Source: Elusimicrobiota bacterium
GTDB lineage: Bacteria > Elusimicrobiota > Elusimicrobia > FEN-1173 > JAKLIF01
Length of the DNA stretch: 64,000 bases
Assembly (NCBI GenBank): GCA_022709755.1
Contig: JAKLIF010000003.1
Span: 29,171-93,170, forward strand
Direction: 5' to 3'
Positions 41,940-64,000 of this stretch are shown here, one piece after another. Each line of letters starts with the position of its first letter. Position 1 is the first letter of the stretch. The translations under genes were made by a program, and so were the position numbers. The notes beneath the pieces were generated by a model. That model had not been told where the DNA came from. It saw only the letters and a program-made list of their open reading frames with translations, and did not search any database.

Positions 41940-42921
41940 ACGACTGGGCCGGAGAGCCCGGCGCATCCTGGTCACCGGTGGAGCCGGTTTCTTGGGGTCC
42001 CATCTGTGCGACGCTCTCATCAGCCGGGGTCATTCCGTCATCTGTGTGGATAATTTTCTGACGGGGAAACCGGACAACATCGCTCATTTGATGGGCCATC
42101 CCCGTTTCGAGTTCATCCGCCATAACGTCACCCACGATCTGTTCATCCACGGTCCCCTTCACGCCATCATGCATTTCGCCAGCCCGGCCTCTCCCGTCGA
42201 TTACCTGAATTATCCGATCGAAACGCTGAAAGTGGGGGCGTTGGGGACCCATAAGATGCTCGGCCTGGCTCGGGCCAAGGGGGCTGTTTTTTTTCTGGCA
42301 TCCACTTCGGAAGTCTACGGCGATCCGCAGGTCCATCCGCAGCGGGAGGACTATTGGGGACACGTCAATCCGGTGGGCCCCCGCGGCGTCTACGACGAGG
42401 CCAAGCGGTTCGGCGAAGCCCTTTGTATGGCGTATCACAAGGTCCATCGGATCCCGGTGAGATTGGTTCGGATCTTCAACGTCTACGGTCCCCGCATGCA
42501 ATTGCGCGACGGCCGGGCGGTGCCGGCTTTCATCTCGGCGGCGCTCAACCGGAAACCCTTCCCGGTCTTCGGGAACGGACGGCAGACCCGCTCTTTCTGC
42601 TATATCGACGACATGGTGGACGGATTGCTCCGTCTCCTTTTTTCCGACTACAACGGTCCGGTGAACATCGGCAATCCTCAGGAGATCAGCGTCTTGAAGA
42701 TGGCCCAGACCATCAAGCGCCTGACGAAGAGCCGGTGTCCGATCGTCCATAAGGGGTTGCCCGTCGACGACCCCAAGGTCCGTCAGCCGGATATCACTTT
42801 GGCCAAACGATTGTTAGGTTGGAGCCCTCGGGTATCGCTGGAGGACGGTCTGAGCCGGACGATCCGCTGGTTTCGTGAGGAACGATACGAAAAGCGGGAG
42901 AGAACCCATGAAAAAAAATAG
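41932..42921 (+). CDS. UDP-glucuronate decarboxylase (UDP-xylose synthase-like extended SDR)
   Basis: [21 protein letters not shown] and the typical UXS/ArnA C-terminal region. Overlaps the upstream stop by 8 nt. Confidence 0.85.
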
Positions 42922-44899
42922 ATTCATCACTTTGATGATCGCCGTGTCCTGGTCGCTGCTCGTGACGATCCTGTTCCTCCGGGGGTCGTTCCAGGGGCTG
43001 GAGAACAAGACCGTTGATTCCCGTTTCGCCCTCCGAGGACAACGCGCGCCGGACCCGCGGGTCGTGATCATCACGGTGGATGAAAAATCCATCGCCGAGA
43101 TGGGCCGTTGGCCTTGGCCCCGACACATCCACGCCCAGTTGATCGAACTCCTGACGAAGGCCGGCGCCACGTCCATCGCGTTCGATATGCTATCGACGGA
43201 AGTGGACAAGGAACATCCGGATTCAGACCAGCGTTTCGCGCAGGCGGCCCAGCAGAGCGGCCGGGTCACGGTCGGGATGTTGTTCCAGCTCGGTGAAGGC
43301 GGAGCGGCCACAGCGCCGTTGTTTCCCTACGAAGCCTTGGCTCAAAAGGCGTCTCTCATGGGTTTCGTCAATAATTTCCCGGAAGCCGACGGGGTCAGCC
43401 GGAAAGTGCCGCTCTACGCCGTCTACAACGATCGGCTCTACCCCTCCCTGTCGTGCGCGGCGCTGGCTGTTCATGAAGGCAAAACGCCGGAAGACCTCCT
43501 GGAGAGACTGAACCTGCCTCTGGAGGGGATCTGGAACGAGATGACCGTCAACTATGTGGGCGGGTTCCAGTCGTTCCCTTATTTTTCCTTCGTGGATGTG
43601 CTGAACGGGAAGGTCACCCCGGACACGTTCAAGGACAAGATCGTCCTGATCGGCGGAACAGCCACGGCGCTGTTTGATTTCCGGGCGGTCCCCAATGTCC
43701 CCGTTTTTCCGGGGCTGGAGATCCACGCCAACGCCATCGACAACTATCTCAACAAAAACCACCTCCGTCATTCCACCTTGCTCCTCGGCGTGCTCCTCAT
43801 CCTGGTCTTCGGCATCAGCTGCGGGCTCATCATGTTCCGCTTGCCGGCCTGGATCGGGGCGGTCTCCATCGGGGCCTGGATGACGGGCTTTTTCTTCTTC
43901 TGTCAGTGGATCTTCGTCAGGACCAACGTGGTCATCGACTTCGTGGGGCCGACGGTCTCCCTGTTGGGATGCTATGTCTTCGTCCTGTTCTACCGGTTCA
44001 TCACCGAGGAACGAGAGAAGCGGTGGATCAAGGGGACGTTCTCCCAATATCTGTCGCCGAAGGTCATCGAGGTCATCACCTCGGATCCCAGCCGGCTTCG
44101 CCTGGGCGGCGAGGAACGCATCATGACCGTGTTTTTCTCCGATCTGGCCGGGTTCACCTCCATCTCGGAAGCCCTCAAGCCGCCGGAACTCGTGGCCGTG
44201 CTGAACGAATATCTCACGGCCATGAGCGAGATCATCTTGAAATACGACGGGGTGGTGGATAAATACATCGGCGACGCCATCATGGCGTTCTGGAACGCTC
44301 CCCTCGACGAACCGCGACACGCCAGTCTGGCCTGCTTCTCCGCGCTGGAGAACATCCAGCAGTTGAAGATCCTTCAAAAGAAGTTCCAACAGCAGGGGTT
44401 GCCGTTGATCGACTGCCGAATCGGGTTGAACACCGGGAACATGGTCGTCGGAAACATGGGATCCAAAAACCGGTTCGACTACACGGTCATGGGGGATTCC
44501 GTCAACCTGGGGTCCCGCCTCGAAGGGGCCAATAAACCGTTCCATACCCGCATCATGGTGTCGGATTTCACATATCAGCAGGCGAAGAACGACGTCGAGG
44601 TCCGCGAACTGGACCTCCTTCGGGTGAAGGGGAAAGCGGTGCCGATCCGCGTCTATGAGTTGGTGGCCCGAAAAGGGGAACTCACCGATACCCAGCGCAA
44701 GGGGTTCGATCTGTATGCCGAAGGGTTGCAATTTTACCGTGACAGGAAATTCTCGAAGGCCGTCGAAAAATTCAAGAAGGTGTATGAGTCCATCCCCGAC
44801 GACGGCCCCTCCGCCGTCTATATCTCTCGCAGCGAAGGATATATCGCCACGCCGCCTCCTCCGGAATGGGACGGCGTCTACGTGATGACCACGAAGTAA
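42908..44899 (+). CDS. CHASE2 sensor domain / class III adenylate-guanylate cyclase
   Basis: N-terminal TM, periplasmic CHASE2, three TM helices, then a cyclase homology domain with [19 protein letters not shown] and [14 protein letters not shown]. Confidence 0.85.
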
Positions 44900-53120: not shown

Positions 53121-55427
53121 ATGGATCGACGAGACGGGGTGGCCGCCGTTGTGTTCTCCCTGATCGGCCTCCTGTGGCTGTTCCCTCAGATTTTCCTCGG
53201 TCGGATCCCCTTCGTCGGCGATCTTCTGAATTCTTTCAACCCGTGGTTCACTTCCGCGGCCCAGGCGCTCCAGTCGGGCCGTCTCCCTCTCTGGAATCCT
53301 TATACCGCTTCCGGTGAACCGTTCCTGGCCAATCCCCAGGCGATGATGTTCTATCCCGGAGCCCTGGTCTTCTGGCTGTTTCCTTATGGGTTCGCCTGGC
53401 CCGCCTTTCTAATGATGCATGTGGTCCTGATCGGTGCGGGGACTTTTTTATTGGCCAAGAAATGGGGTTTCTTGACGGGACAAGCCCTTTTTATCGCCTT
53501 GGCGATGGTTTGGAACGGCTTCATGGTCGTCCATTGGGAGTTCCCACCGGCGTTGGCGGCGTCGGCCTATGTCAGCTTGATGATCCTCGTCGGCGGGGCC
53601 TATCGGTCTCGCGTGTCGCCGATGTGGGTTGGTTTTGTGTTGGCCATCACGACGACACTCTTGTGTTTGACCGGTTATCCCCACTTCATCTACTACATAC
53701 TCCTCTTGGCGGTCGTTCACCGGCTCACGGAGAGCGGTCGGCGTTTGTGGCGTGGAGACGAGCCCCGGTTCAAGACCGTCTATCATGTCCTTCTGTGGGG
53801 GGCTTTTGTCGGTTTTGGAATCGTCATGAGTCTTCCTCAATGGGGACCGGCCTTGGAAGCCGTTTCCCAGTCCATCCGCAACAGGATTCCGCTGAACTCC
53901 GCGGCGGATTACAGCCTCAATCCGGCGTTCATCCTTAAATTCATCATCCCCGATATCGTCGACAAAGTGGCTCTCCCGTTCCGTTCCTCTCCTTTCGGAG
54001 CTGAATTCTGGCCGTTGCAGCGCAACTGGTTGACCACGTTCTTCATCGGGACGGGGCCGTTCGTGCTGGCGCTGGCCGCACTGCGACACCGGTCTCGATG
54101 GCATCTGGCGGGAGTGGCCCTGTTCGCCGGGATGTTGGCTTGCGCGATGCCGGTCGTGTTCCCGCTGGTTTGGACCCTGTTCCCGGGGATGAGATACATG
54201 ACTCATTTCGCCAACGCCATGTTGATTGCCGTCTGGGCGGTTGTTTTCCTGGCGGGCTTCGGGCTGAAAGACCTGTCCGGCGACCGGAAGCCGGCGCTCC
54301 TCCTCCTGGCCTTGGTGGCCGTGGTCTCGACGGTCGTGGCGTTGAGCGGGACTTTTCGGGGGATGTCGGCCCGTTGGCTTCTGGGACTCGGGTCTCTGAG
54401 CGAGGCCCAACATATGTGGATGAAGACGGCCGCGTGCCATAGCGTGGTCTGGATGGCGCTCTGGGCCGGATTGTTCTTTTTTCGCTGGAAGGGGAAGACT
54501 TTGTCCCTGTTGGCCTTGTTGTCGGCTGAACTGTGGATGTTCGGCCATGATATCCATCCCTTGACCCGTCATTCCTTCTTCCATGAGCCGGTGACATTGG
54601 CGCGTTTCGTCCAAACGAAAGATGTGCGCTTTGTGATGGATCCGGAACTCATGAAGAAGAGCCGGATCATGACCGGTGATTCCCTGGCGGCGGGTTATCA
54701 GAGTATACGTCAGGTCCTTTATCCCAATGTCCATCTGCCCTTTCGTGTGGAGGCGGCGTGGGGTTATGAGGTCATGCCGAATAAAGCCTACGCCGATTTC
54801 CGACGACAAATATCCGGGAATCTCCTGGAAAACCGGTTGGTGCGGTTCCTGTCCGGAGGCATCGTCCTCTCTGAAACCGATCAGGGTCGTTTCAAGCGGG
54901 CGGATCATTACCATTTCAGCGTCCATGATAACCCCGACGTTCTTCCCAAGGCGACATGGAATTCCAGACGGAAAGTCATTCCGGGGAGCGACGAACGCCT
55001 TCGTTACCTGGTTCGGGAATGGGATCCTTCTTCCGAGACGGTCTTGGAGACGGGGACCGAGGGGGGAGCGCTGACGGGAGTTCAGGGCGGACCGTTGTCG
55101 TTTGGAGAGACGGAAGAGAGTGTTTCTGTCCGGGGGGAACGGTCCACGGCGGGATTTCTTGTGATGAACCGGATCTATTATCCCGGATGGGAAGTGTTCG
55201 TCAATGGAAAGAGGGGAACCCTCCTGCGAGCCAACCATGCTTTTCAATGCGTTGAGACGCCCGCTGGGTATTGGGACGTCGTTTTTAAATATCGGCCCAG
55301 AATTTTTTATTTGGCGGTATGGGGGTTTGTGTCTGTCTCGTTGTTCCTGATCGCATCCAATCTGTTGATGGCGATCCCGAAAAAAAGGGCTTTTTTTGCG
55401 TCAAAAAACGCAAAATACAGGGTTTAA
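53121..55427 (+). CDS. YfhO-family large polytopic membrane protein (glycosyl-modification-associated)
   Basis: 768 aa, ~14 TM helices and a C-terminal extracytoplasmic domain, typical of the YfhO/DUF2723 architecture. Confidence 0.65.
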   Translation: MDRRDGVAAVVFSLIGLLWLFPQIFLGRIPFVGDLLNSFNPWFTSAAQALQSGRLPLWNPYTASGEPFLANPQAMMFYPGALVFWLFPYGFAWPAFLMMHVVLIGAGTFLLAKKWGFLTGQALFIALAMVWNGFMVVHWEFPPALAASAYVSLMILVGGAYRSRVSPMWVGFVLAITTTLLCLTGYPHFIYYILLLAVVHRLTESGRRLWRGDEPRFKTVYHVLLWGAFVGFGIVMSLPQWGPALEAVSQSIRNRIPLNSAADYSLNPAFILKFIIPDIVDKVALPFRSSPFGAEFWPLQRNWLTTFFIGTGPFVLALAALRHRSRWHLAGVALFAGMLACAMPVVFPLVWTLFPGMRYMTHFANAMLIAVWAVVFLAGFGLKDLSGDRKPALLLLALVAVVSTVVALSGTFRGMSARWLLGLGSLSEAQHMWMKTAACHSVVWMALWAGLFFFRWKGKTLSLLALLSAELWMFGHDIHPLTRHSFFHEPVTLARFVQTKDVRFVMDPELMKKSRIMTGDSLAAGYQSIRQVLYPNVHLPFRVEAAWGYEVMPNKAYADFRRQISGNLLENRLVRFLSGGIVLSETDQGRFKRADHYHFSVHDNPDVLPKATWNSRRKVIPGSDERLRYLVREWDPSSETVLETGTEGGALTGVQGGPLSFGETEESVSVRGERSTAGFLVMNRIYYPGWEVFVNGKRGTLLRANHAFQCVETPAGYWDVVFKYRPRIFYLAVWGFVSVSLFLIASNLLMAIPKKRAFFASKNAKYRV

Positions 55428-55467
55428 TCTTTTCGTCGGGGAAAAAGGCTATTTAGCAATAAAACCC

Positions 55468-55496
55468 TTGACAAAATGGGGTTCGGACCCTATACT
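55468..55496 (+). promoter_or_regulatory. sigma70-type promoter: TTGACA - 17 nt - TATACT
   Basis: Exact -35 hexamer at 55468-55473 and -10 hexamer at 55491-55496, with 17-nt spacing, 40 nt after the yfhO-like stop. Predicted TSS ~55503. Confidence 0.55.
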
Positions 55497-55504
55497 TGGA
55501 GTGA

Positions 55505-55630
55505 CGATAAGGGCAACCCTCGGTGAAAGCTGGGGGGCGCAAAGCTACGGGGCTAAAGAGAGGTCATTCTATATCCAAAGTGAAAGCTTTGGATACCTTC
55601 CGCGAGGGAGGGCTGGCCGAGCTGCCGAAT
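55505..55630 (+). ncRNA. c-di-GMP-I (GEMM) riboswitch-like aptamer, copy 1 (divergent, extended P3)
   Basis: AAGGGCAACCC - hairpin with GAAA tetraloop (CCUCGGU GAAA GCUGGGG) - GGGCGCAAAGCUACGGGGCUAAAG ... GGCUGGCCGAGCUGCCGAA. This matches the GEMM-I order GGCAAACC / GNRA-capped P2 / GACGCAAAGCC-ACGGG / P3 / ...GCCGA. One A is missing from the GGCAAAC box. Confidence 0.5.
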
Positions 55631-55688
55631 TATGACGAGAGCAGTTGCTCGTGCGTTCGTGCAGCCGTGGGACTCGATCCCATGTTTT

Positions 55689-55724
55689 AGCCGCGTTTGC
55701 TCAGTGCAAATGGCGGCTTTTTTA
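55689..55724 (+). terminator. intrinsic terminator (expression platform of riboswitch 1): AGCCGCGTTTGC-tcagt-GCAAAtgGCGGCT + TTTTTT
   Basis: ~11-bp GC-rich stem with a 5-nt loop, immediately followed by a T6 run. Read directly from the sequence. Confidence 0.6.
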
Positions 55725-55791
55725 TTCAGTCTGAAACATTGATCTTTTGATTCGCTCGACAAATCTCCTTTAACCGGGAGGCCTTTCCAAG

Positions 55792-55886
55792 AGTTCGGAA
55801 AGGGGCAAACCCGTCGCAAGACGGGGACGCAAAGCCACGGGCCCAGGAACCGCTGAATGGTTTTGGGGCAGCCGGGTTGCCGAAGA
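55792..55886 (+). ncRNA. c-di-GMP-I (GEMM) riboswitch aptamer, copy 2
   Basis: GUUCGGAAAGGGGCAAACC CGUC-GCAA-GACG GGGACGCAAAGCCACGGGCCC...GGGGCAGCCGGGUUGCCGAAG. It has the GGCAAACC box, a GNRA-capped P2, the GACGCAAAGCC-ACGGG core and the 3' GCAGCCGGGUUGCCGA element, nearly identical to the V. cholerae Vc2 consensus. P1 is UUCGG/CCGAA. Downstream leader ends in a U8 tract (56027-56035) just before the GGAGAGG SD of the first cluster gene. Confidence 0.7.
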
Positions 55887-56049
55887 ACAGACGTGTTTGG
55901 CCGACGGCGTTGTAACTTATAAGAAAGACGGCGCTGTAGGTACAATCACTTCATTTTCTTCTTTTGTATCAGCCGGTGACCGTGGTCACGAGCGATCAGT
56001 GATAGTCAGTGACATCGGGCGTCGGCATTTTTTTTGAACGGAGAGGAAA

Positions 56050-56463
56050 ATGAACCAAAAACGGCTTCAAACGATGGCAGTCGCGGCGGGGATCCTGGGA
56101 TGGATCCTTTGCGTGACGCCTGTTTGTCAGCCGGGCCACAGCATCGCCATCCAATCCCTCGAAAACCTGACCAATTACCCCAACCCGTTCGATTCCCGTT
56201 CCGCCGTCACCGTGATCGCCTATACGCTGCCTTCTGAAGCCAGCGTCAAGATCGTCATTTTCGATTTGGGCGGCAATGAGATCCGCCGTTGGGACATCTC
56301 CGCCGGGACGGAGGGATCTCGGCAAGGTTCGAACAGATGGACATGGGATGGAACGGATGAATCGGGGAGCAAAGTTGCGGCGGGGGGGTATGTGTGCCGC
56401 GTGATGGTGGAAGAGGGATACGGTTTCTCTTCCGGAGTCCGGAAGATCGGAGTGATCCGGTAA
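56050..56463 (+). CDS. small secreted protein with FlgD-Ig-like / T9SS C-terminal-domain-like beta-sandwich
   Basis: Signal peptide MNQKRLQTMAVAAGILGWILCVTPVCQ. YPNPFDSRSAVTVIAYTLPSEASVKIVIFDLGGNEIRRW...WTWDGTDESGSKVAAGGYVCRVMVE follows the NPF...I.Y.L......I.D..G..V......G....W.G.D..G..V..G.Y pattern of FlgD Ig-like/Por_Secre_tail domains. GGAGAGG SD. Confidence 0.6.
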   Translation: MNQKRLQTMAVAAGILGWILCVTPVCQPGHSIAIQSLENLTNYPNPFDSRSAVTVIAYTLPSEASVKIVIFDLGGNEIRRWDISAGTEGSRQGSNRWTWDGTDESGSKVAAGGYVCRVMVEEGYGFSSGVRKIGVIR

Positions 56464-56475
56464 CGGAGAACGGCC

Positions 56476-58119
56476 ATGAGACAAGGACTGACCTCATCGA
56501 GCTTCTTCGGAAACCAGGCCCGGCGGCGGTTCGCCGGCCGGCTGGTGTCGGTCCTTCTTGCGGCTCTCCAGGTGGTCTCTCTGTTCCCGATGTCGGCGTC
56601 GGCTCAGGCCAAAGGAGGCGCTCCGGGACAATTCCTCTCGTGGGGAACCGGCGCCCGCAGCATGGGGATGGGAAAGGCCTTCTCCGCCATCGCCGACGAC
56701 GCCACTTCCGTTTATTGGAACCCGGCCGCGATGGTTCAGGCCGAACGGAAAGAGTTGTCCGCCATGCACGTGACCCTTTTCAAAGACACCGCCTACGATT
56801 CCATCAGCTATGTCCACCCGACTTCCAGAGCCGGCACGCTCGGCCTTAATTTCACCCGTCTCTTGTCCTCCGGATTCGAGAAGATCGGGATCAGCATCGA
56901 CCCCAAATCGCAGGAGATCGTCAAGTTGGAGAAGCTCGGCACTTTCGACGACCTTCAACAGGCCTACACGCTGGCTTACGGAAAACAGTTCACGGAAAAG
57001 ATGTCCATCGGCGTGTCCGTCAAACAGATCAGCCATCAGATGGATACGTTCAAACAGGGGTTCGTGGCCGTCGATGCGGCGTTCTTCGGGCGTGAATTTT
57101 TCCCCCATCACCGGATCGCGCTGGTGGGGCAGAACATCGTTTCCCAGGTCTCCGGACAGACGGACGATCAACTGCCGTTGACGGTACGCGTCGGGAACGC
57201 CTATTCCTTGCTGAGGGACCGCATCAACCTGGGGCTGGATATCACGCAGAACAGTTTTTCCGGGTTGGGCTACAATTTCGGGGCCGAATATTGGGTCCTG
57301 CGGTGGGCGGCGCTGAGGCTCGGGATCGAGGCGCATAGCGAAGGAATCGCGGAGACGAGCGTCGGGTTGGGGTTGAAACATCGGAACTATAGCCTGGATG
57401 TCGCCATGGCGATCCATGAACTGGGGATGTCCCAGCGGGTCTCGGCGTCCTGGCGTTTCGGCCGCTCGGTCAAGTCCAGCCAGAGAGAAGAAACCCAGAG
57501 CCTCATCGAACAGGGTCACGAGATGTTCCGGCAGGGCAATTATCTGCAGGCCATCCAGAAATTCAGCGCGGCGTTGGACGTGAACCCGTCCAATAAAGAG
57601 GTCCAGGCCATGGTGGCCAAATTGCAGGATATCGTCTCCGATCTTCCGAAGGCGCCGTCCGGCGACGTGGGCCGGTTGGTGGCTTCCGGCGTCAAGGCGT
57701 ATATGGACGGCGATCTGAACGGCGCGTATGACAGCTTCCGGGCCGCCTTCGATAAGGAGCCGGAGAACGGCCAGTTGATGAATCTGACCAACCGTCTGGC
57801 GAAACAGACCAATCGGCCGATGGTGGAACGGCCCAAGGGCGCCAGCGCGGCCGCCCGATGGACGCTGGTGGACCAGAAGCTGCATGACGCCCTGCAGGCC
57901 ATCTACGAAGGCCGCTATGACGTGGCCATCCAGAAATGCGACGAGGTCCTGCGCATCGAGCCCACGAACGTGGTGGCGATCGGCCGGATGGGCGCGGCGT
58001 TCTTCCTCCTGGGAGAACGGGACAAGGCGGTGGCTCTCTGGAAGCGGGCCCTGGAACTGGATCCGACCCATCGCCCGGCCATCGAATACCTGCAGCAACT
58101 GGGTGAATACAAACGATGA
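56476..58119 (+). CDS. FadL/PorV-like outer-membrane beta-barrel fused to C-terminal TPR repeats
   Basis: Signal peptide ending ...SASAQA. Hatch motif GARSMGMGKAFSAIADDATSVYWNPAAM, the same A-x-AMG-x-AF-x-A-x-ADD-x-S-x-x-x-NPA motif as the FadL at 7806-9065. ~300-aa beta-rich barrel, then ~200 aa of TPR (ALDVNPSNKE..., ALELDPTHRPAIEYL). Confidence 0.65.
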   Translation: MRQGLTSSSFFGNQARRRFAGRLVSVLLAALQVVSLFPMSASAQAKGGAPGQFLSWGTGARSMGMGKAFSAIADDATSVYWNPAAMVQAERKELSAMHVTLFKDTAYDSISYVHPTSRAGTLGLNFTRLLSSGFEKIGISIDPKSQEIVKLEKLGTFDDLQQAYTLAYGKQFTEKMSIGVSVKQISHQMDTFKQGFVAVDAAFFGREFFPHHRIALVGQNIVSQVSGQTDDQLPLTVRVGNAYSLLRDRINLGLDITQNSFSGLGYNFGAEYWVLRWAALRLGIEAHSEGIAETSVGLGLKHRNYSLDVAMAIHELGMSQRVSASWRFGRSVKSSQREETQSLIEQGHEMFRQGNYLQAIQKFSAALDVNPSNKEVQAMVAKLQDIVSDLPKAPSGDVGRLVASGVKAYMDGDLNGAYDSFRAAFDKEPENGQLMNLTNRLAKQTNRPMVERPKGASAAARWTLVDQKLHDALQAIYEGRYDVAIQKCDEVLRIEPTNVVAIGRMGAAFFLLGERDKAVALWKRALELDPTHRPAIEYLQQLGEYKR

Positions 58120-60047
58120 TCTCCGCCCCCTATTATAGAGTAGGTAACTACATGGGGCCCCGCCCCCGGTTCTTGGGTCGCGCGGTCTTCGTTGTGGTGG
58201 CGGCGTTGGTCTGTTCCGGGATTCTGACGGAGACGGGTTTCACCGTCGGCGCCGCCGCCCCGGACCCGGTCATCATCGAACAGGAGAACCTCATCCGCCG
58301 CGAAGCGGAGGAAAAGATCCAGCGGGACATCTTGGACCGCATCCTCGGAGAGGGGCGGGCCAGCGTGCTGGTGAACGTCGAGGTCAGTCTCGAGAGCGAA
58401 AAACGGGAGTCAGGCACGGCGGAAGGGAAAGTGGACGACCGCAAAGGATTGGGCGATCAGGACTACATCCTGCCGTGGGTTCCGGCCCAGAAGTCGGTCA
58501 GCAAGAACAATGAGGTCCCCAAGGACGCCAAGGTGGAATCCGCTTCGGGAGAGATAGCGACCTCCGCGATCCGTCAGGTCGTGCGCCGTTTCGACGTGAC
58601 CGTGATCCACGATGAATCCATGGGCAAACCGCAGATGGAGCTGGTGGATGCGGCCATCCGTTCCGCTTATTCGCGTTACGAGAAGGTCATGAGCGTTATC
58701 TATAAGGCGACCCGGTTTGCCAAATATGAGATGAAGGTCAAGATCAGGGAGGGTTTCTGGGATTTTCTGAAACCCCAGTATCTGTTGCCCGGTCTCATCG
58801 CCCTCCTCCTGTTGTTCTTCCTGTTCGGTCCGGTGTGGCAGTTCCTTCGGGCGGTGTTGAAGGCCATGACGGCCCGCCGTGGAGCGGACATGTTCAGTGA
58901 TTCCAACACACGGCTTGAATCGAAGGGGGAGAACGAGGATAAGGACAAGGATAAAGACGGAAAGAATGGGGAAGGGGAAGAGGCCGATGCTCTGGCGGCC
59001 CTTCAGAAGAAGATGCAGGAGGAGAAATACATCCCCTTCCTCTATGTCGACGATAAGAACCTGAAACGGCTGATCTACCTCATCCGGAAAGAGCCGCCGG
59101 AAGTCATCGCCGTCATCGTGTCTTACCTGAAGCCGGAGTTCGTCAAGGAGATATTGAATTCGCTGGTGCCGGAGTTACAGGCCAAAGTGGCCATGCATAT
59201 GGCCGCGGTGAAACAGATGACGCAGGCGGAGATCCGTTCGTTGGATATGGAGATCAAGGAGAAGATCGATTTTCTCGTGGGGGGTCTCCATTCGTTGTTG
59301 AAGGTCCTCGATGAGGTGAATTCCACCAGCCGTGACAACATCTTGGAATATCTCAAGAACGAACGTCCGAGACTCTATGAGAAGGTGCGGCATTATATCC
59401 TGATGTTCGACGACATCATCAACTTTCCGGACCAGGCCATGCAGATCATCGTCCGTGAGTTAAGGACGGAGAATCTGGCCAAGGCCCTTCAGGGGGCCAG
59501 CCCGGACATCACGAACAAGGTCTTCAACAACATGTCGAAAGGGGCCATGGCTCTTCTCAAGGAGGAGATGGAGTTCAGCCGGGCCTTGACGCCGGATCAG
59601 ATCACGGACGAACGTCAGAAGATATTGAACACCGTCAAGAGCCTTGAATTGGCCGGGAAGATATCGATCCGGGAGAAATTGCCGGATGATTTCCTGGAGT
59701 GGGAGGACATGGAGGTCCTGTCCAACACCGGACAATGGCTCGCCGGCCGTTCTTCGTCGGAACCGGCCGCCTCCCCGGCCGCCAACCCCGAATATTTCAC
59801 GGCAGGAATACAACTCTATCAGGCGGGACAGTATTCGGAAGCACTGCCATATCTTCAGTACGCGGATCAGCTGGACCCCCGGTCCGAGGAGACGAAACAG
59901 TATCTGGGGCACTGCTATTACGCGTTGGGTCAGTACGGCGCCGCGTTGGCGACGTATGAGACGTTGTCAGCGATGAAACCAGGGGATGCGGCTTTGAAAC
60001 AGTGGGTGGAACAGTTCCGCGCGAGCATCTCTCTCCCGACGACATAA
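58116..60047 (+). CDS. chimeric FliF(C-terminal ring-building/TM part)-FliG(middle + C-terminal domains) membrane protein with C-terminal TPR
   Basis: Residues ~50-260 align with the FliF RBM3 and C-terminal TM region: NLIRREAEEKIQRDILDRILGEGRASVLVNVEVSLE versus FliF NDVESRIQRRIEAILSPIVGNGNVHAQVTAQLD, then TM LLPGLIALLLLFFLFGPVWQF. Residues ~300-520 are FliG-like. EPPEVIAVIVSYLKPEFVKEILNSLVPELQAKVAMHMAAV matches the FliG-M EHPQ region. ILMFDDIINFPDQAMQIIVREL...GASPDITNKVFNNMSKGAMALLKEEM...RQKILNTVKSLELAGKISI matches the FliG-C MFxF and charged-helix region. C-terminus is TPR-like (AGIQLYQAGQYSEALPYLQYA...). ATGA overlap with the upstream stop. Confidence 0.7.
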   Translation: MISAPYYRVGNYMGPRPRFLGRAVFVVVAALVCSGILTETGFTVGAAAPDPVIIEQENLIRREAEEKIQRDILDRILGEGRASVLVNVEVSLESEKRESGTAEGKVDDRKGLGDQDYILPWVPAQKSVSKNNEVPKDAKVESASGEIATSAIRQVVRRFDVTVIHDESMGKPQMELVDAAIRSAYSRYEKVMSVIYKATRFAKYEMKVKIREGFWDFLKPQYLLPGLIALLLLFFLFGPVWQFLRAVLKAMTARRGADMFSDSNTRLESKGENEDKDKDKDGKNGEGEEADALAALQKKMQEEKYIPFLYVDDKNLKRLIYLIRKEPPEVIAVIVSYLKPEFVKEILNSLVPELQAKVAMHMAAVKQMTQAEIRSLDMEIKEKIDFLVGGLHSLLKVLDEVNSTSRDNILEYLKNERPRLYEKVRHYILMFDDIINFPDQAMQIIVRELRTENLAKALQGASPDITNKVFNNMSKGAMALLKEEMEFSRALTPDQITDERQKILNTVKSLELAGKISIREKLPDDFLEWEDMEVLSNTGQWLAGRSSSEPAASPAANPEYFTAGIQLYQAGQYSEALPYLQYADQLDPRSEETKQYLGHCYYALGQYGAALATYETLSAMKPGDAALKQWVEQFRASISLPTT

Positions 60048-60052
60048 AAACG

Positions 60053-63000
60053 ATGAACGATAAACTCAAATCTCTGTTCGGCCGAAAAAAAGGGGATCCG
60101 TCCACGGATTCCCGGAACCTTCCTGTTCCGTCGGAACCGGCGCGACCCCCGATGGTCCCTCCTCGGGAGGAAGCCGGATCGTCCGATCAGGCGGCTGATT
60201 CTCTTTTTCAGAAACAGGAGCTTGAACGCGCGGCGGCCACGGCCGAACTTCAGGAGGCCGAGACGGCCGCCGCGGTGAGGCAACAGGCCTTCAACGAAGA
60301 GATGAAGACATTCCATGAGGATATTGAGGCCACCTTGCGCGCGTGGGAGGAACATGCCCTGGTCTCGAAGAAACGATGGACCGAACTGATCGAAAAAAAG
60401 ATGTCGGAGATGAAACAAGAGTCGGAGAAAGCCCTGGAACTCGAATCCCTGCTGAAATATCACAGGGAATCGTCATCCAAGTCCGCCGTCCTCCAGGAGC
60501 AGATGGAGCAGGAGAAAAGACAGTCCCTTGAAAAACAGATGCGGGGCGAGAGGGCCCGGTGGGAACAGCGGCTGGAGGACCAGAAACAGAAGATCGGTTC
60601 TCTCCGCCAGAAGATCGAGGTATTGAGAGGTCAGAAGGTCCTCGAGGAGGAGGCGCACCGCAAGGAGATCGAGACGTTGAAGGCGCAGTTCTCCAGCGAG
60701 ACGTTGCGTCGTCAACGGGAATGGGAACTCATCAAGGGACAATTGGAGAGGACGTTACAAGAGAAAGCCAAAGCCCTGCGGGAGATGAAGCTCAGGACCG
60801 AAGAATTCAAGATGTCGATCGACATGGAGTTGAAGAATCAGGAGGACGAGAAACAGCGGCTGATCTCCACGTCCCAGGAACGGCTCCAGACCCTCGGCCT
60901 CCGGAAACAAAACGAACAGATGAAGTTTGAATCGGTTCTGAAGACCCTCGCGGAGACCCATCAGAAATCGATCGCGGAGTTGGAGATGATCCAGGCCCAG
61001 TCCAAGGCCGAAAAAGAAATCCACCAGAAGGAATATCGGGATCTGGTGGCCAAGGCCCAACAGGATCTTCAGGAATTGGAACATCGTCTCCAGCGCGAGG
61101 AGGGTTCTTTCCGCCAGGTTATCGACGATAAAAATCGGGAAGCGCAGTCCCTGCAAGAACAGCTTGAGCAGATCGAGAAGTCGTCCCAATCGGGATGGAA
61201 AGACGTTCAGTCCCGGCTGGAGCAGGATCGTCTCCAACTGGCCGCCCAGATCCGGTCGCAGGAAGAGGCGTTGCAGAACCTCCTGAAAGAGCAGGAGGAG
61301 AAGTTGAACCGCCAGAAGGCCGATTATGCGGCGCTCCAACAGGCCTGGAGCCAGCGGTTGAAGGAAGAACAGTCCCAGCACGCCCAACTCATCCAAACAT
61401 TGCAGGAGCAGAGGAGAGGGTTGGAGATGAAACAGGCGGAGTTGGAGAAGTCTTTGAACGGGCAGCGCGAAGAGTGGAAAAAACAGATCGTTGAGACGGA
61501 ACGCGCCGTCGCGGAAGCGCAGACTCAATTGTCTCAGAAACAATCCGAGGTTAAGAGGACTCTGCAACGGTTGGAGTGGGACCATCAGGAGGCGGCCCGT
61601 CCGTTGGTGGCGAAAAAGACCGAGATCGAGAGGCGGTTGCAGTCCCTCCAGACCGATTTTCAAAAGGCCATGGAGGACAAGGAACGATGGGTCCAGTCGT
61701 ACGTGGACCAGATGAACCGCCGGGAGGAGGCGGCCAAACGGTTGTACGATGAGCAGAAGAACGCGGCCCAACGGGAACTCGAAAAACTGTCCAAGGCGGA
61801 GGCGGAGGCGTCGGTCCGTTGGAGGGTGGAAGAGCAGAAGATGAGGGAATCCCTCGATCTAAAGAACGTGGAGCTGGGACGTCTCCAGGGGGAACTGTCC
61901 GCGAAGGTGGATCAGGGCCAGGTTGAACAGTCTCAAATGAAGCAACGGTTCGAAGAGGAGTTGCTCCGGCTTCGGGAAGAAGTTAAAGCTGTTTCGGATC
62001 ATGTCGACAAACAGAGACAGGAGAATCAACGGATCTTATCGGAGAAGGATCAAGATATCTCGGCGCTGAAGATCCGCTTGAAAGAACAGGCCCAGCGCCT
62101 CGAAGAGGAGGGGCGTCTCCTCTCCGTCTCTTTCGAAGAAGAACGTTGCCGGTTGCAGAAATCGTTGGAAGAGGAGGAGGTCCGTCGTCAGAAGATCCAA
62201 GAGGGTTGGAATCTCGAGAAAGATTCCCTGATCAATCGTCAAAGGGAACTGGAGAAACAGATCGAAGACGCATCGGTCCTTCATCGTCGGGAGATGGAAG
62301 CGCTCGCCGCGGATCGGGCCAGGGTGCGTCAGCCGCTCTCCCAACAGAAAGCCGATCTGGAGATCCAACTGGAAACCCTGCTGAAGGACCGGGAGGGCGC
62401 GCTTCAGGCCTTGGAGTCGGAAAAGCAGAATCTTGAATATCAACTTCAACAGAAACAGGAGTCGGTGGGGAATATCCGGGAGCGGCATCATCAGGATGTC
62501 GCGAACCTGAAAGACCAGTTTCGGGAACGTTTTGCGCGGATGAGGGAGGAGTGGACCGCGCTGGAAAACCGGCATGCGACGGCGTTGCAGGATCTGGAGC
62601 GCCAGATCCTGAACGTTCAGAAACAGTTTGCGGAAACGAAATCGGAGTTGGATCAGGAAAAAGATAATTTCCTCCAGGTCTCTCATCGGGAGAAGGCGGC
62701 CTTGCTCGACAGTCTCGCGGAATTGGATCGGAAGATCGGTTCCTTCAAGGAAGAGTGGCCCCGGCAACGCCAGGAAAAAATGGATTATCTCGATCAGATT
62801 CAGAAGAAGGTCGCGCTCCTCCAGCGTCAGTTGGATGAACAGGAGAAGGAGTCGGTCCGCGCTCTGGATCAACGGCGCCAGCGGTTCCTGAAACGGGAAT
62901 CGAAAGTCCGGCAGGTGATCGGTTCTCGGACCGAGAAACAGAAACAGGAACTGAATAAGAGTCAGTCTCTCCTCCAATCTCTTCAGAAGGAGACGGCCGG

Positions 63001-64000
63001 ACAGGAACAGTCGTTGCGGAACCAGTTGACCGAAACGGAAAAAGCATACGCGGCCGAGAGGGACCGGTTGGGACAGCAGAAGAAGGAACTGCAGTCCCGA
63101 TGGGAGATCCTCGAGAAGGAACGAGCCGAGGAATTATCGAAATTGAGCGGCGAGATCCAGCGTTTGGAGACCCAATACGCCACTCAGCAATCCCAATGGG
63201 ACAGGCAGCTCCAAAAACAGAGGGAAAACGAGGCCTCGGAGATCGAATCCTTCCATGTCCGGATCCGGGAGATCCTGGAACGGCAGAAGAAGGACGAGGC
63301 GGCGGCGGACGCGGTCATCCAACGGGCGGAGGCGGATCGGGCAAAACTGCAGAAGGAATATGAGGACCGCCGCTGGGCATTGGAATCCCAGATCATCGAA
63401 AAACGGAAACAATGGACACCCCTTTTGGAGAAGATGAAGGAGGAGGTCCGGAGCCTATCGGAGAAAGAGACGGATCTCCTCCAGCGCTTCACGACGGAAA
63501 AAGAGCATCGCGTCAAGAAACTGGCCGATCTTCAGAACCAGCTCCAGAACTGGAACGAGAAGATGCAGGCGGAGAAGAAGGAACATGAGATACGGCATGA
63601 GGATAAGATCGCTTCCCTGCAGGAGCAGATCGATAAGAACACCCAACTGTTGGTCAAGACAAAGAAAGAATTGGACGTGCGGGTGCAGTCGAATCAGGAG
63701 GAGTTGCAGAAAGTCACCACGGATTTGCAGGAACGGGAACGTCAGATCATGGCGCAGATCGACAAAGAGGAGGCGGACTGGAAAGAGGGGCTGACCGCCG
63801 TTGAGGAAGAGGCGCAGCAACTGAAGTCCCGGCTCCAGTCGACAGAGTCCGCCCACCGGGAGACGGTCGGCGGATTGGAAGTGCGCATCAGTCAGATTCA
63901 GATGGAGCTGACCCTGAAGGAGACGCAGCGGGAGTCGGACAAGGCCCGTTTCGAGAGGGAATCGGCCAAGGTCCGCCGTCCTCTGGAACAGAAGTTGAAG
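60053..64000 (+). CDS. giant coiled-coil protein (>1315 aa, 3'-truncated by window end)
   Basis: ATG 5 nt after the FliF/FliG-like stop. The frame is open to the last base of the window. Translation is E/Q/K/R/L-rich with heptad periodicity throughout (e.g. LQEQLEQIEKSSQSGWKDVQSRLEQDRLQLAAQIRSQEEALQNLLKEQEEKL). It is absent from the ORF track only because it has no stop in the window. All minus-strand ORFs in 60.7-63.9 kb are its shadows. Confidence 0.6.
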   Translation, partial: MNDKLKSLFGRKKGDPSTDSRNLPVPSEPARPPMVPPREEAGSSDQAADSLFQKQELERAAATAELQEAETAAAVRQQAFNEEMKTFHEDIEATLRAWEEHALVSKKRWTELIEKKMSEMKQESEKALELESLLKYHRESSSKSAVLQEQMEQEKRQSLEKQMRGERARWEQRLEDQKQKIGSLRQKIEVLRGQKVLEEEAHRKEIETLKAQFSSETLRRQREWELIKGQLERTLQEKAKALREMKLRTEEFKMSIDMELKNQEDEKQRLISTSQERLQTLGLRKQNEQMKFESVLKTLAETHQKSIAELEMIQAQSKAEKEIHQKEYRDLVAKAQQDLQELEHRLQREEGSFRQVIDDKNREAQSLQEQLEQIEKSSQSGWKDVQSRLEQDRLQLAAQIRSQEEALQNLLKEQEEKLNRQKADYAALQQAWSQRLKEEQSQHAQLIQTLQEQRRGLEMKQAELEKSLNGQREEWKKQIVETERAVAEAQTQLSQKQSEVKRTLQRLEWDHQEAARPLVAKKTEIERRLQSLQTDFQKAMEDKERWVQSYVDQMNRREEAAKRLYDEQKNAAQRELEKLSKAEAEASVRWRVEEQKMRESLDLKNVELGRLQGELSAKVDQGQVEQSQMKQRFEEELLRLREEVKAVSDHVDKQRQENQRILSEKDQDISALKIRLKEQAQRLEEEGRLLSVSFEEERCRLQKSLEEEEVRRQKIQEGWNLEKDSLINRQRELEKQIEDASVLHRREMEALAADRARVRQPLSQQKADLEIQLETLLKDREGALQALESEKQNLEYQLQQKQESVGNIRERHHQDVANLKDQFRERFARMREEWTALENRHATALQDLERQILNVQKQFAETKSELDQEKDNFLQVSHREKAALLDSLAELDRKIGSFKEEWPRQRQEKMDYLDQIQKKVALLQRQLDEQEKESVRALDQRRQRFLKRESKVRQVIGSRTEKQKQELNKSQSLLQSLQKETAGQEQSLRNQLTETEKAYAAERDRLGQQKKELQSRWEILEKERAEELSKLSGEIQRLETQYATQQSQWDRQLQKQRENEASEIESFHVRIREILERQKKDEAAADAVIQRAEADRAKLQKEYEDRRWALESQIIEKRKQWTPLLEKMKEEVRSLSEKETDLLQRFTTEKEHRVKKLADLQNQLQNWNEKMQAEKKEHEIRHEDKIASLQEQIDKNTQLLVKTKKELDVRVQSNQEELQKVTTDLQERERQIMAQIDKEEADWKEGLTAVEEEAQQLKSRLQSTESAHRETVGGLEVRISQIQMELTLKETQRESDKARFERESAKVRRPLEQKLK

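What the first reader, a model, noticed from the sequence alone, without database searches (positions are those of the whole stretch)
56050..64000. Riboswitch-controlled cluster encoding a flagellar-rotor-derived (FliF/FliG chimera) envelope system without any other flagellar genes
Four co-directional, tightly coupled genes (ATGA overlap, 5-12 nt gaps) follow two c-di-GMP riboswitch-like elements. They encode (i) a small secreted FlgD-Ig/T9SS-CTD-like beta-sandwich protein, (ii) a FadL/PorV-like OM barrel with periplasmic TPR, (iii) a natural fusion of the FliF C-terminal ring/TM region to the FliG middle and C domains plus TPR, and (iv) a >1300-aa coiled-coil protein. FliF and FliG normally form the MS-ring/C-ring rotor and their interface is recreated here in a single polypeptide, yet no hook, rod, export or motor gene is present within 64 kb. 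This domain assortment (inner-membrane ring + OM barrel + filament-like coiled coil + Ig cargo, under second-messenger control) looks like a repurposed rotor or secretion-like machine. It could be a novel c-di-GMP-regulated surface structure or motility/adhesion apparatus. I do not recognise this gene combination as a described system.
Basis: partly seen in the sequence, partly recalled or inferred. Interest (0 to 1): 0.9.

Follow-up and report, generated by a model that had tools for sequence, protein, structure and literature searches.

The report
Flagellar-rotor-like envelope machine, no flagellum
A bacterium from a phylum reported to lack flagella carries a c-di-GMP-riboswitch-controlled operon built around one protein that fuses the two flagellar rotor parts (FliF ring domain and FliG torque domains). 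The operon is conserved across that phylum, usually next to flagellar-type motor (MotA/MotB) genes and type-IX-secretion-like outer-membrane parts. It looks like an undescribed envelope machine.

Summary
Two c-di-GMP-I riboswitches (55502-55629, 55795-55885) precede tightly coupled genes: a 137-aa signal-peptide plus CTD-only protein, a PorV/PorQ-family barrel with TPR, a TM-RBM3(FliF)-TM-FliG(M+C)-TPR protein, and a coiled-coil protein. On the source contig the coiled-coil protein is 1599 aa and two more coiled-coil genes follow.

The window comes from an Elusimicrobiota MAG. That phylum is reported to lack flagella, and no other flagellar gene occurs in the 64 kb.

The cluster is conserved. 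180 species-level genomes encode the fusion protein. In the 79 loci fetched from 80 kept hits, the PorV-TPR gene sits upstream and a proline-rich coiled-coil gene downstream. Riboswitches precede the cluster in at least 54 of 66 testable loci. MotA and plug-bearing MotB follow in 49 loci, though not in the window's own variant. The small protein's domain is the C-terminal tag of giant neighbouring proteins elsewhere.

Best reading: a new proton-motor-linked, rotor-like trans-envelope machine handling CTD-tagged surface proteins, probably repressed by c-di-GMP. Its function is inferred, not shown. I found no description in the searchable literature.

The parts
55468..55496 (+). Sigma-70-like promoter (TTGACA-17-TATACT), 6 nt upstream of riboswitch 1
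   Evidence: Consensus scan: 11 of 12 matches, the only site in 55300-56100. A pattern match only.
55502..55629 (+). c-di-GMP-I riboswitch aptamer 1, with a 54-nt insertion in the second hairpin
   Evidence: Rfam RF01051, 51.7 bits (GA 35), E 3.4e-7. Also found by my covariance model R1 as L001 7387-7514, 58 bits.
55689..55723 (+). Terminator-like hairpin plus U-run after aptamer 1
   Evidence: Terminator scan. RNAfold hairpin 55689-55716 and T-run 55718-55723. It forms in both modelled aptamer states, so the switching logic is unresolved.
55795..55885 (+). c-di-GMP-I-type riboswitch aptamer 2
   Evidence: Rfam RF03167, 70.1 bits (GA 59), E 1.5e-14. It has A, not G, at the position where the GGC-variant consensus has G (GACGCAAAGCC; alignment).
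55953..56049 (+). Leader hairpin that pairs a pyrimidine run with the Shine-Dalgarno region and start codon. It encloses a hairpin followed by U8 (56028-56035).
   Evidence: RNAfold MFE. Prediction only.
56050..56463 (+). ORF1: 137-aa protein made of a signal peptide plus one CTD-like (FlgD_ig / T9SS-type) beta-sandwich domain
   Evidence: Pfam FlgD_ig 7.3e-11. It aligns to the last ~95 residues of proteins longer than 2300 aa that lie just upstream of the PorV-TPR gene in other loci, with a shared YPNPFDSR...GGYI...RKIGVIH-COOH pattern. It is the only CTD ORF in the window.
56476..58119 (+). ORF2: outer-membrane PorV/PorQ-family beta-barrel (residues ~52-328) with a C-terminal, presumably periplasmic, TPR domain
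   Evidence: NCBIfam NF033709, 115.7 bits (cutoff 90); several TPR models. Directly upstream of the ORF3 homologue in 70 of 81 loci.
58116..60047 (+). ORF3: TM1, then FliF-RBM3-like periplasmic domain with a ~50-aa insertion, then TM2, an acidic linker, FliG middle and C-terminal domains, and a TPR pair
   Evidence: Pfam/NCBIfam. AlphaFold models. Foldseek: FliG 1.8e-11 and FliF 3.5e-4 for the full model; top 14 hits all FliF for the periplasmic domain. Relatives pass the PF08345 GA. 205 homologues; 180 species genomes.
60053..64000 (+). ORF4: cytoplasmic coiled-coil protein, cut by the window end. Full length is 1599 aa with a C-terminal TPR pair. Two more coiled-coil genes (1036 and 543 aa) follow on the source contig.
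   Evidence: Open frame to the window end. Full genes in L001, L002 and L084. Weak TPR hits at residues 1519-1584. No signal peptide is visible in the sequence.

Best explanation
The window's end holds the first four genes of a six-gene operon. The operon encodes an Elusimicrobiota-wide trans-envelope machine.

Core: one inner-membrane protein unites the ring-building C-terminal periplasmic domain of FliF (RBM3 with an insertion at the position of the FliF beta-collar) with the middle and C-terminal (torque) domains of FliG. I infer that it forms a membrane ring carrying a cytoplasmic crown of FliG domains, a minimal rotor without FliM/FliN, export gate, rod or hook.

Stator: in most lineages the same operon ends with flagellar-type MotA and plug-bearing, OmpA-domain MotB. 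I infer that proton flow through MotAB acts on the FliG crown.

Outward link: the ring is inferred to be coupled to a PorV/PorQ-family outer-membrane barrel through that barrel's periplasmic TPR domain. The barrel family is the one that holds C-terminal sorting domains (CTDs) in type IX secretion. The cluster always brings a CTD protein: a giant adhesin-like protein, or, as here, a CTD-only mini-protein.

Inward link: the C-terminal TPR of the fusion protein and the large proline-rich coiled-coil proteins are inferred to form a cytoplasmic scaffold or track.

Proposed function: energised export, attachment or movement of CTD-tagged surface proteins. This would be a functional analogue of the Bacteroidota T9SS/gliding motor built from flagellar rotor and stator parts.

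Regulation: expression is gated by c-di-GMP riboswitches. In the single-riboswitch variants the start codon abuts the aptamer, which suggests that c-di-GMP turns the system off.

Shown: domain identities, gene order, conservation, riboswitch presence. Inferred: ring formation, rotation, coupling to the barrel, cargo handling, and the sign of regulation.
For: Domains.

Folds: the FliG_C part superposes on FliG bound to MotAB (8ucs_H, TM 0.94) and the full model also hits FliF rings. The periplasmic domain alone gives FliF RBM3/collar as its top 14 hits, then PrgK.

Transitive sequence link: the profile of the periplasmic domain finds 334 cluster representatives. Among them, P0320, P0330 and P0362 pass the PF08345 gathering score and all carry FliG_M and FliG_C.

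Synteny over 81 loci: PorV-TPR upstream in 70, coiled-coil downstream in 66. MotA (PF01618, 7.7e-25) and MotB (MotB_plug 1.4e-9, OmpA 5.4e-15) follow co-directionally in 49 loci. A conserved lipoprotein follows MotB in 35 loci.

Divergent relatives: the same triad recurs in L082 and L083, which lack the riboswitch. L083 has a giant 7555-aa protein, a CTD protein passing the TIGR04183 cutoff, a PorV/Q-family-like TPR protein (78.8 bits, below the 90-bit cutoff), an HK-FliF_C-FliG fusion, MotA and MotB.

CTD: the domain is shared between ORF1 and the extreme C-termini of giant proteins.

Stator interface: the residue equivalent to E. coli FliG D288 is Glu in 80 of 80 loci. MotA keeps a basic residue at the R90 position.

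Riboswitches: 68 hits, all on the + strand, lie just upstream of the cluster. At least 54 of 66 testable loci have one and 11 have two in tandem. The ATG lies 1-7 nt after the aptamer in 14 of 14 single-riboswitch loci examined.

No flagellum: window survey and the statement for the whole phylum in PMC11257099.
Against: The window's own variant has no MotAB in the window or within 10 kb downstream. Whether its genome has MotAB elsewhere is unknown.

Only one of the five canonical charged FliG torque-helix residues is invariant. The R281 equivalent is Gly in 72 of 80 loci and the D289 equivalent is variable. The stator-rotor interface, if any, therefore differs from the flagellar one.

The window protein itself does not hit the Pfam FliF models, and the profile search of PDB sequences is not significant.

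The AlphaFold models are of moderate quality (pLDDT 71-73) and monomeric. Ring formation was not tested.

All cultured Elusimicrobiota are reported non-motile.

The T9SS translocon and ring genes (Sov, PorK/L/M/N) were not seen, so how cargo would cross the outer membrane is open.

The riboswitch logic of the window's tandem leader could not be resolved by folding.
Confidence: 0.5

Rival explanations
1. Static scaffold. The FliF/FliG fusion, the TPR domains and the giant coiled-coil proteins form a non-rotating envelope-spanning anchor or cytoskeletal organiser (cell shape, polarity, adhesin anchoring). The FliG domains serve only as protein-binding modules, at least in the window's MotAB-less variant.
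For: There is no MotAB in the window or within 10 kb downstream. This variant instead has three coiled-coil genes totalling about 3200 residues. Four of the five canonical charged torque-helix positions are not conserved. The FliM-binding EHPQR motif is changed. FliG-like helical domains also occur in the non-rotary MgtE N domain (Pfam MgtE_N hit).
Against: The Glu at the D288 position is invariant in loci with and without adjacent MotAB, and the FliG_C fold is close to stator-bound FliG. 49 related loci encode MotAB in the same operon, so the family as a whole is stator-linked. MotAB could lie elsewhere in the window's genome.
Confidence: 0.22
2. Envelope-integrity or division system of the Tol-Pal kind. 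MotAB-type energy is transmitted through the ring and TPR proteins to an outer-membrane barrel in order to tether or constrict the outer membrane. It does not act on cargo.
For: MotB has an OmpA-like peptidoglycan-binding domain. TPR domains sit on the periplasmic and cytoplasmic sides. Endomicrobiaceae are reported to lack several standard outer-membrane assembly factors (passage from PMC11257099).
Against: The barrel belongs to the PorV/PorQ family. A CTD-bearing protein is a constant neighbour, including giant adhesin-like ones. Control by a c-di-GMP riboswitch is typical of motility and adhesion genes rather than housekeeping envelope functions (established knowledge). MotA is of the flagellar type, with a plug-bearing MotB.
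Confidence: 0.1
3. Divergent paralogue or decaying relic of a true flagellar gene set that exists elsewhere in the genome.
For: About 33% identity to Thermotoga FliG shows descent from flagellar FliG.
Against: No other flagellar gene is in the 64 kb. The phylum is reported to lack flagellar machinery in all genomes. The full-length protein is conserved across 180 species genomes, with 46% mean column identity in a sample of 24 homologues, and the ORFs are intact, which means purifying selection and not decay.
Confidence: 0.03
4. Chance juxtaposition or over-interpretation of weak domain hits.
For: The FliF assignment lacks a direct Pfam hit.
Against: E-values run from 1e-11 to 1e-37 for the other domains. 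Both riboswitches are above gathering score. The same order is found in 66-70 of 81 loci over 33-68% protein identity.
Confidence: 0.01

Closest known systems
Bacterial flagellar rotor and stator (FliF MS-ring, FliG, MotA5B2)
   Same: FliG middle and C-terminal domains (2.9e-37 to T. maritima FliG). A FliF RBM3-like ring-building domain between two TM helices. Flagellar-type MotA and plug-bearing MotB in the operon of most relatives. The FliF-FliG junction is recreated covalently; engineered FliF-FliG fusions are known to form rings (PMC10941966, listed).
   Different: No FliF RBM1/RBM2, no FliG N-domain, no FliM/FliN, no export apparatus, rod, hook or filament. EHPQ is changed to E-x-P-W. Only the D288-equivalent charge is invariant. 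There are extra C-terminal TPR and giant coiled-coil partners. The host phylum is reported to lack flagella.
Type IX secretion / gliding motor of Bacteroidota (GldLM/PorLM motor, PorKN ring, Sov, PorV, CTD cargo such as SprB)
   Same: The logic: an inner-membrane proton-driven 5:2-type motor, a PorV/PorQ-family outer-membrane barrel, cargo marked by a C-terminal beta-sandwich domain, and giant adhesin-like cargo (the giant L057 protein has fn3 repeats).
   Different: The motor is MotAB acting on a FliG crown, not GldLM reaching across the periplasm. No PorK/N/Sov homologues were seen. The barrel carries its own TPR domain. The phylum is different. Expression is under c-di-GMP riboswitch control.
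Myxococcus Agl-Glt focal-adhesion gliding machinery
   Same: An analogous parts list: a Mot/Tol-like motor, TPR proteins, outer-membrane barrels, a surface adhesin, and a large cytoplasmic coiled-coil protein (AglZ). This comparison rests on my own knowledge, not on a test here.
   Different: No sequence relationship was tested or expected. Agl-Glt has no FliF or FliG domains.
c-di-GMP-I (GEMM-I) riboswitches upstream of motility and adhesion operons, for example Cd1 before the Clostridioides difficile flgB operon (my own knowledge)
   Same: The same aptamer class, above Rfam gathering scores. It sits at the head of a motility/adhesion-type operon. Tandem arrangement occurs in other genes too (PMC12452182).
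   Different: The controlled operon is new. The association is nearly universal across a phylum. Two platform types occur: the aptamer abuts the ATG in single-riboswitch loci, whereas the tandem leader of the window (the only one folded) has terminator-like hairpins.

Membership tests
Flagellar rotor protein FliG | FliG middle (PF14841) and C-terminal (PF01706) domains | tested here: met
   48.5 and 91.9 bits, both above gathering score. 2.9e-37 to T. maritima FliG. Foldseek 1.8e-11.
Flagellar rotor protein FliG | FliG N-terminal domain that binds the FliF C-terminal helices | tested here: not met
   The PF14842 hit is below cutoff and falls on the middle domain. Residues 259-287 are a disordered acidic linker directly after TM2.
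Flagellar rotor protein FliG | EHPQR motif (FliM contact) | tested here: not met
   The window has E-P-P-E. The family consensus is E-E-P-W. The Arg is replaced by His in the window.
Flagellar rotor protein FliG | Charged torque-helix residues (E. coli K264, R281, D288, D289, R297) | tested here: inconclusive
   The D288 equivalent is Glu in 80 of 80 loci. The D289 equivalent is variable, the R281 equivalent is Gly in 72 of 80, and the K264 equivalent is variable.
Flagellar MS-ring protein FliF | C-terminal ring-building domain (RBM3 / PF08345) between two TM helices | tested here: met
   No direct Pfam hit. The model has an alpha-beta-beta-alpha-beta fold with an insertion. The top 14 Foldseek hits are all FliF RBM3/collar. 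Profile-linked relatives pass the PF08345 GA (46.5, 34.9 and 31.4 bits). Support is therefore structural and transitive, not direct.
Flagellar MS-ring protein FliF | N-terminal RBM1/RBM2 region (PF01514) | tested here: not met
   Only ~170 periplasmic residues are present and there is no PF01514 hit.
Bacterial flagellum (whole system) | Export apparatus, rod, hook, filament and FliM/FliN genes in the genome | tested here: not met
   None among the ~40 surveyed ORFs of the window, and none within 10 kb downstream. The phylum is reported to lack them (PMC11257099). The whole genome could not be scanned here.
MotAB stator | MotA_ExbB channel protein plus MotB with plug and OmpA-like domain, encoded with the rotor | tested here: not met
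   For the window: no hit in the window at phmmer E 1e-4, and no MotA/MotB Pfam family among the called genes within 10 kb downstream. For the family: met in 49 related loci.
Type IX secretion system | PorV/PorQ-family outer-membrane barrel | tested here: met
   NF033709, 115.7 bits against a cutoff of 90. The equivalog models for PorV, PorQ and PorV2 are far below their cutoffs, so this is a family member and not an orthologue.
Type IX secretion system | Type A C-terminal sorting domain (TIGR04183) on cargo | tested here: inconclusive
   ORF1 scores 19.6 bits against a cutoff of 23, and Pfam FlgD_ig passes. The homologous small protein in L083 passes TIGR04183 (33.3 bits). The domain sits at the extreme C-terminus of the giant proteins.
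Type IX secretion system | Core genes PorK/L/M/N and the Sov translocon | tested here: not met
   No such Pfam families among the surveyed ORFs of the window or in the called genes of L001 and L082-L084. Whole genomes were not scanned.
c-di-GMP-I riboswitch (RF01051 clan CL00126) | Aptamer sequence and structure above the curated score | tested here: met
   51.7 bits against 35, and 70.1 bits against 59. Conserved in at least 54 of 66 related loci.
c-di-GMP-I riboswitch (RF01051 clan CL00126) | Binds c-di-GMP and changes expression | not testable with these tools
   Needs in-line probing or reporter assays. Folding gave no clear ON/OFF answer for the window.

The most novel reading that the evidence does not exclude
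This is a third kind of proton-driven surface machine. A minimal non-flagellar rotor, a FliF-RBM3/FliG ring turned by MotAB, transmits work through a PorV-like barrel to giant CTD-tagged adhesins, for gliding or energised secretion. It operates in a phylum that has no flagella and is switched off by c-di-GMP. If it is ancient rather than a flagellar remnant, it would be a living example of a rotor-stator module working without the type III export apparatus, which bears directly on how the flagellar motor arose.
Probability: 0.35. Interest if true: 0.95.

Novelty: categorically new. Interest (0 to 1): 0.88.

Why it matters
As far as I know, FliF and FliG are known only as parts of the flagellum. 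Every non-flagellar relative of the MotAB motor described so far (ExbBD, TolQR, GldLM, AglRQS, ZorAB) works without them.

A conserved, riboswitch-controlled operon that pairs a FliF/FliG fusion with MotAB and with type-IX-like outer-membrane parts would be a new class of envelope machine, in a phylum reported to lack flagella and to be non-motile.

It would make several questions testable:
- Can a rotor-stator pair work without the export apparatus and the C-ring?
- Do Elusimicrobiota glide or move adhesins?
- How are CTD-tagged proteins handled outside Bacteroidota?

It also gives a clear physiological target for one of the most conserved c-di-GMP riboswitch associations seen so far.

Tried and rejected
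1. Direct sequence proof of the FliF part failed. Pfam on ORF3 gave no FliF model. The profile of the periplasmic domain against PDB sequences gave only non-significant SpoIIIAG (0.65) and FliF (1.3) matches. I therefore relied on fold search and on relatives that pass PF08345.

2. I tried to find MotA of the window's own genome by matching contig lengths among MotA homologues. The 120 listed hits all score about equally and none lies on the window's contigs, so the question stays open. Downstream walking showed no MotAB within 10 kb.

3. ON/OFF logic of the window's tandem leader: thermodynamic folding with and without the aptamer's 3' strand gave the same terminator hairpins. No conclusion.

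4. A chemotaxis-gene link: a che cluster lies beside the system in L008 only. I rejected it as a conserved feature.

5. The AlphaFold-database fold library was not available, so no UniProt organisms could be listed.

6. Eight literature searches found no description of the system. One led to the passage on the absence of flagella in the phylum (PMC11257099, read). The library holds only open-access papers and bioRxiv.

7. The 'GGC variant' label of riboswitch 2 is not taken as evidence for another ligand. The variant-defining position is the canonical A.
Full report
**What is in the window**

The + strand from 55468 to the window end reads as one transcription unit.
- A sigma-70-like promoter (TTGACA-17-TATACT, 55468-55496).
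- A c-di-GMP-I aptamer (55502-55629; 51.7 bits).
- A hairpin plus U-run (55689-55723).
- A second aptamer of the same clan (55795-55885; 70.1 bits).
- A leader hairpin that covers the ribosome-binding site.
- ORF1 (56050-56463), ORF2 (56476-58119), ORF3 (58116-60047, ATGA overlap) and ORF4 (60053 to the window end).

The source contig was found by exact protein look-up (ENA ERZ761563 NODE_163, 104 kb). On it ORF4 is 1599 aa, and two further co-directional coiled-coil genes of 1036 and 543 aa follow. After those come an unrelated deaminase gene and, on a longer contig carrying identical copies of four of the operon's proteins, genes on the other strand. The operon therefore has six genes. The last protein is identical to an NCBI entry from an Elusimicrobiota MAG.

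**The four products**

ORF1 is a signal peptide plus a single beta-sandwich domain (Pfam FlgD_ig 7.3e-11).

ORF2 passes the NCBIfam PorV/PorQ family cutoff (115.7 bits against 90) over residues 52-328 and ends in TPR repeats.

ORF3 has two hydrophobic helices (about 21-42 and 220-245) around a ~170-residue domain. An acidic disordered linker follows, then FliG_M (1e-12), FliG_C (3.9e-26) and a TPR pair. The FliG part is about 33% identical to Thermotoga FliG (2.9e-37). Its C-domain superposes on the FliG fragment solved in complex with MotAB (8ucs_H, TM 0.94).

ORF4 has no family hit. The sequence shows no signal peptide, and weak TPR hits fall at its C-terminus.

**Is the N-terminal half of ORF3 really FliF-like?**

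Pfam does not say so for the window protein, and a profile search of PDB sequences is not significant. Three other lines agree, however.
- The AlphaFold model of the periplasmic domain is alpha-beta-beta-alpha-beta, the ring-building motif. A ~50-residue unmodelled insertion lies between the two first strands, where FliF RBM3 carries its beta-collar.
- Foldseek against the PDB returns FliF MS-ring, RBM3/collar or S-ring chains as the top 14 hits (2.9e-5 to 3.6e-3), then the injectisome ring protein PrgK.
- A profile of the domain, run against 1.84 billion representative proteins, finds 334 relatives. Of ten more distant ones that I scanned, seven carry FliG_M plus FliG_C, and three of those pass the gathering score of PF08345 (YscJ_FliF_C): 46.5, 34.9 and 31.4 bits against 23.8.

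I accept the FliF-RBM3 assignment as supported structurally and transitively. RBM1/RBM2 and the FliG N-domain are absent. The covalent link replaces the FliF-FliG_N contact.

**Not part of a flagellum**

A Pfam survey of about 40 GC3-selected ORFs in 1-56000 shows regulators, sugar and isoprenoid metabolism, sulfatases, a FadL, and similar genes. There is no hook, rod, export, switch or stator gene. [quoted passage not shown]

**Conservation**

The big protein database holds 205 homologues. The best 120 are almost all full-length, 576-684 aa (two are shorter fragments); all but one carry both FliG_M and FliG_C and nearly all carry TPR, with names from Elusimicrobia or Endomicrobia MAGs. A scan of one genome per species finds relatives in 180 genomes. 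Of the best 80 hits kept (79 distinct loci), all but two are labelled Elusimicrobia, Elusimicrobiota or Endomicrobia.

On my ORF calls for 81 loci:
- the PorV-TPR gene is directly upstream in 70;
- a coiled-coil gene with a proline-rich N-terminus is directly downstream in 66; most of the remaining loci are cut short by contig ends.

**A stator in the same operon**

In 49 loci the coiled-coil gene, or the fusion gene itself, is followed co-directionally by a MotA gene (PF01618, 7.7e-25), in nearly all of them together with a MotB gene (MotB_plug 1.4e-9, OmpA 5.4e-15). These MotA proteins are very conserved, with 76% mean column identity, and keep a basic residue at the position of E. coli R90. 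A conserved lipoprotein ending in ...EEDLFKGFGFGQ follows MotB in 35 loci.

On the rotor side, the residue matching E. coli FliG D288 is Glu in 80 of 80 loci. The other canonical charges are not kept, and the FliM-contact motif EHPQ reads E-E-P-W in most members. The link to MotAB is therefore strong genetically, but any interface is not simply the flagellar one.

**Two architectures**

Type A: a single riboswitch, PorV-TPR, the fusion, one coiled-coil gene, MotA, MotB and the lipoprotein, often preceded by a giant gene.

Type B, which includes the window, its close relatives and Endomicrobia-type lineages: tandem riboswitches, a small CTD-only protein, PorV-TPR, the fusion, and then two or three large coiled-coil genes (three in the window's organism), with no adjacent MotAB.

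I could not establish whether type-B genomes have MotAB elsewhere. This is the main gap for the window itself.

**The small protein is a cargo tag**

ORF1 aligns over ~95 residues with the extreme C-terminus, ending 0-1 residues from the stop, of proteins longer than 2300-2700 aa that lie just upstream of the PorV-TPR gene in many loci. The shared pattern is YPNPFDSR...IYDLLG...WDG.N..G..V..GGYI...RKIGVIH. This is the layout of type-IX C-terminal sorting domains. The homologous small protein of a divergent locus passes the TIGR04183 cutoff. One CTD-bearing neighbour has fibronectin-III repeats, and another locus has a 7555-aa Laminin_G protein beside a stand-alone CTD protein.

PorV is the barrel that binds such domains in type IX secretion. 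That statement is established knowledge and was not tested here.

**Deeper relatives**

Two loci reached through the domain profile repeat the core triad of CTD protein, PorV/Q-family-like TPR barrel and FliF_C-FliG fusion.
- L082 carries the core without a riboswitch. Its fusion protein is TPR-less and two GAF response regulators lie nearby.
- L083 carries a fusion protein with an N-terminal histidine kinase, followed by MotA and MotB.

The module is thus older and wider than the riboswitch association.

**Regulation**

Rfam on 13 loci and my covariance model on 80 loci give 68 aptamers. All are on the coding strand and all lie just upstream of the cluster. At least 54 of the 66 loci where the region is present have one, and 11 have two in tandem. 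Where a giant gene precedes the cluster, the aptamer lies between it and the PorV-TPR gene.

In 14 of 14 single-riboswitch loci examined, the ATG lies 1-7 nt after the aptamer's last base. The ribosome-binding region is then part of the aptamer. The simplest reading is that ligand binding blocks initiation, an OFF switch. That is an inference. For the window's tandem leader, folding gave no decision.

Repression by c-di-GMP would fit a motility-like or dynamic surface function.

**Mechanism proposed, and rivals**

I propose a ring of the fusion protein in the inner membrane, acted on by MotAB. It would be coupled in the periplasm to the TPR domain of the PorV-like barrel, which holds CTD proteins at the surface. 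The cytoplasmic TPRs and the coiled-coil proteins would act as scaffold or track. Ring formation, rotation, the contacts and the cargo role are all inferred.

The main rival is a static scaffold, at least for the MotAB-less type B. A Tol-Pal-like envelope role is possible but fits the CTD and PorV features poorly. A flagellar remnant and chance juxtaposition are effectively excluded.

**Comparison and novelty**

The system shares parts with the flagellar motor and logic with the Bacteroidota T9SS/gliding motor, but it fails defining features of both. It has no export apparatus, rod, hook or FliM/N, and no PorK/L/M/N or Sov.

Eight literature searches of the open-access library found no description. 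A 2025 survey of MotAB relatives does not mention Elusimicrobia. I rate the system categorically new, with the caveat that subscription-only papers could not be searched.

Noticed in passing
L005, L008, L011, L014, L021, L030 and others; L001 19700-19868 and 21400-21504: In many type-B loci, and in some type-A loci (L005, L011), the coiled-coil proteins downstream of the fusion gene end in a similar short motif, hydrophobic-x-x-(W/L)-(L/M)-(N/D/K)-x-P-(I/V/L)-(I/V)-(E/D/S)-(I/V/F). Examples are GLWGWLNKPAIEINF, FWRNLHQPVIEIN and GFFGWLMKPLVVIETG. It could be a docking peptide for the TPR domains or a membrane-binding tail.
   Followed up: no
window 57480-58119, 59780-60047; L001 16500-16737: ORF2, ORF3 and ORF4 each end in a similar ~70-residue pair of TPR repeats. 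One is presumably periplasmic and two cytoplasmic. The shared tail may reflect a common binding mode or domain shuffling within the operon.
   Followed up: no
L066 8221-8280, L054 8299-8350, L041, L045, L060, L040, L057, L080: A G/C-rich hairpin (GGGGC...GCCCC, in either order) recurs within ~50 nt after the aptamer, in what I called the first codons of the PorV-TPR gene. Its strands are complementary to the aptamer's second hairpin, so it may be the expression platform. The true start codon may be a downstream ATG in some loci.
   Followed up: partly
L071 9959-14092; also L048, L037, L068, L050: Some genomes have a fusion-protein gene followed directly by MotA/MotB (only MotA lies within the fetched stretch in L037 and L050), with no PorV-TPR gene upstream, no coiled-coil gene and no riboswitch. 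This may be a stripped-down or second copy of the module.
   Followed up: no
P0362 / L083 8001-10544; P0312: Variants of the rotor-like protein: one has an N-terminal histidine kinase (HisKA plus HATPase_c) fused to FliF_C-FliG_MC. Another representative (372 aa) combines the RBM-like domain with a MotA_ExbB domain.
   Followed up: partly
L008 1-7270: A chemosensory cluster lies directly upstream of the riboswitches in one Endomicrobiales MAG only. It holds CheA, a PAS response regulator, a 743-aa actin-like ATPase, two CheC genes, CheD, CheY and another response regulator.
   Followed up: yes
L057 1-7685; L014 1-2735: Extra modules occur upstream of the main cluster: another PorV-like barrel gene and a CTD-bearing protein (1670 aa with fn3 repeats in L057). 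L057 also has a Cache-HAMP adenylate/guanylate cyclase gene beside them.
   Followed up: partly
window 12001-14000 (ORF 12591-13898 +): A low-GC island (0.44 against ~0.60) holds a STAND-type NTPase ORF (nSTAND1, 4.2e-9). It is possibly a horizontally acquired defence-type gene.
   Followed up: no
window 29494-29991 (-) and 42875-44899 (+): A DUF520/YajQ-family protein is present; from memory, members of that family bind nucleotides, including c-di-GMP in some bacteria. A CHASE2-domain adenylate/guanylate cyclase is also present. I saw no GGDEF or EAL gene among the window ORFs I surveyed.
   Followed up: no
window 55795-55885: Rfam assigns the second aptamer to the 'GGC' variant family. However, the sequence has the canonical A at the variant-defining position (GACGCAAAGCC). 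The higher score may come from the outer stem, which that model includes.
   Followed up: partly
L084 14067-21632 (-): Downstream of the operon, on the opposite strand, lie a 1055-aa protein without any family hit and a protein of at least 3405 aa with a SpoIIE/PP2C phosphatase domain.
   Followed up: no
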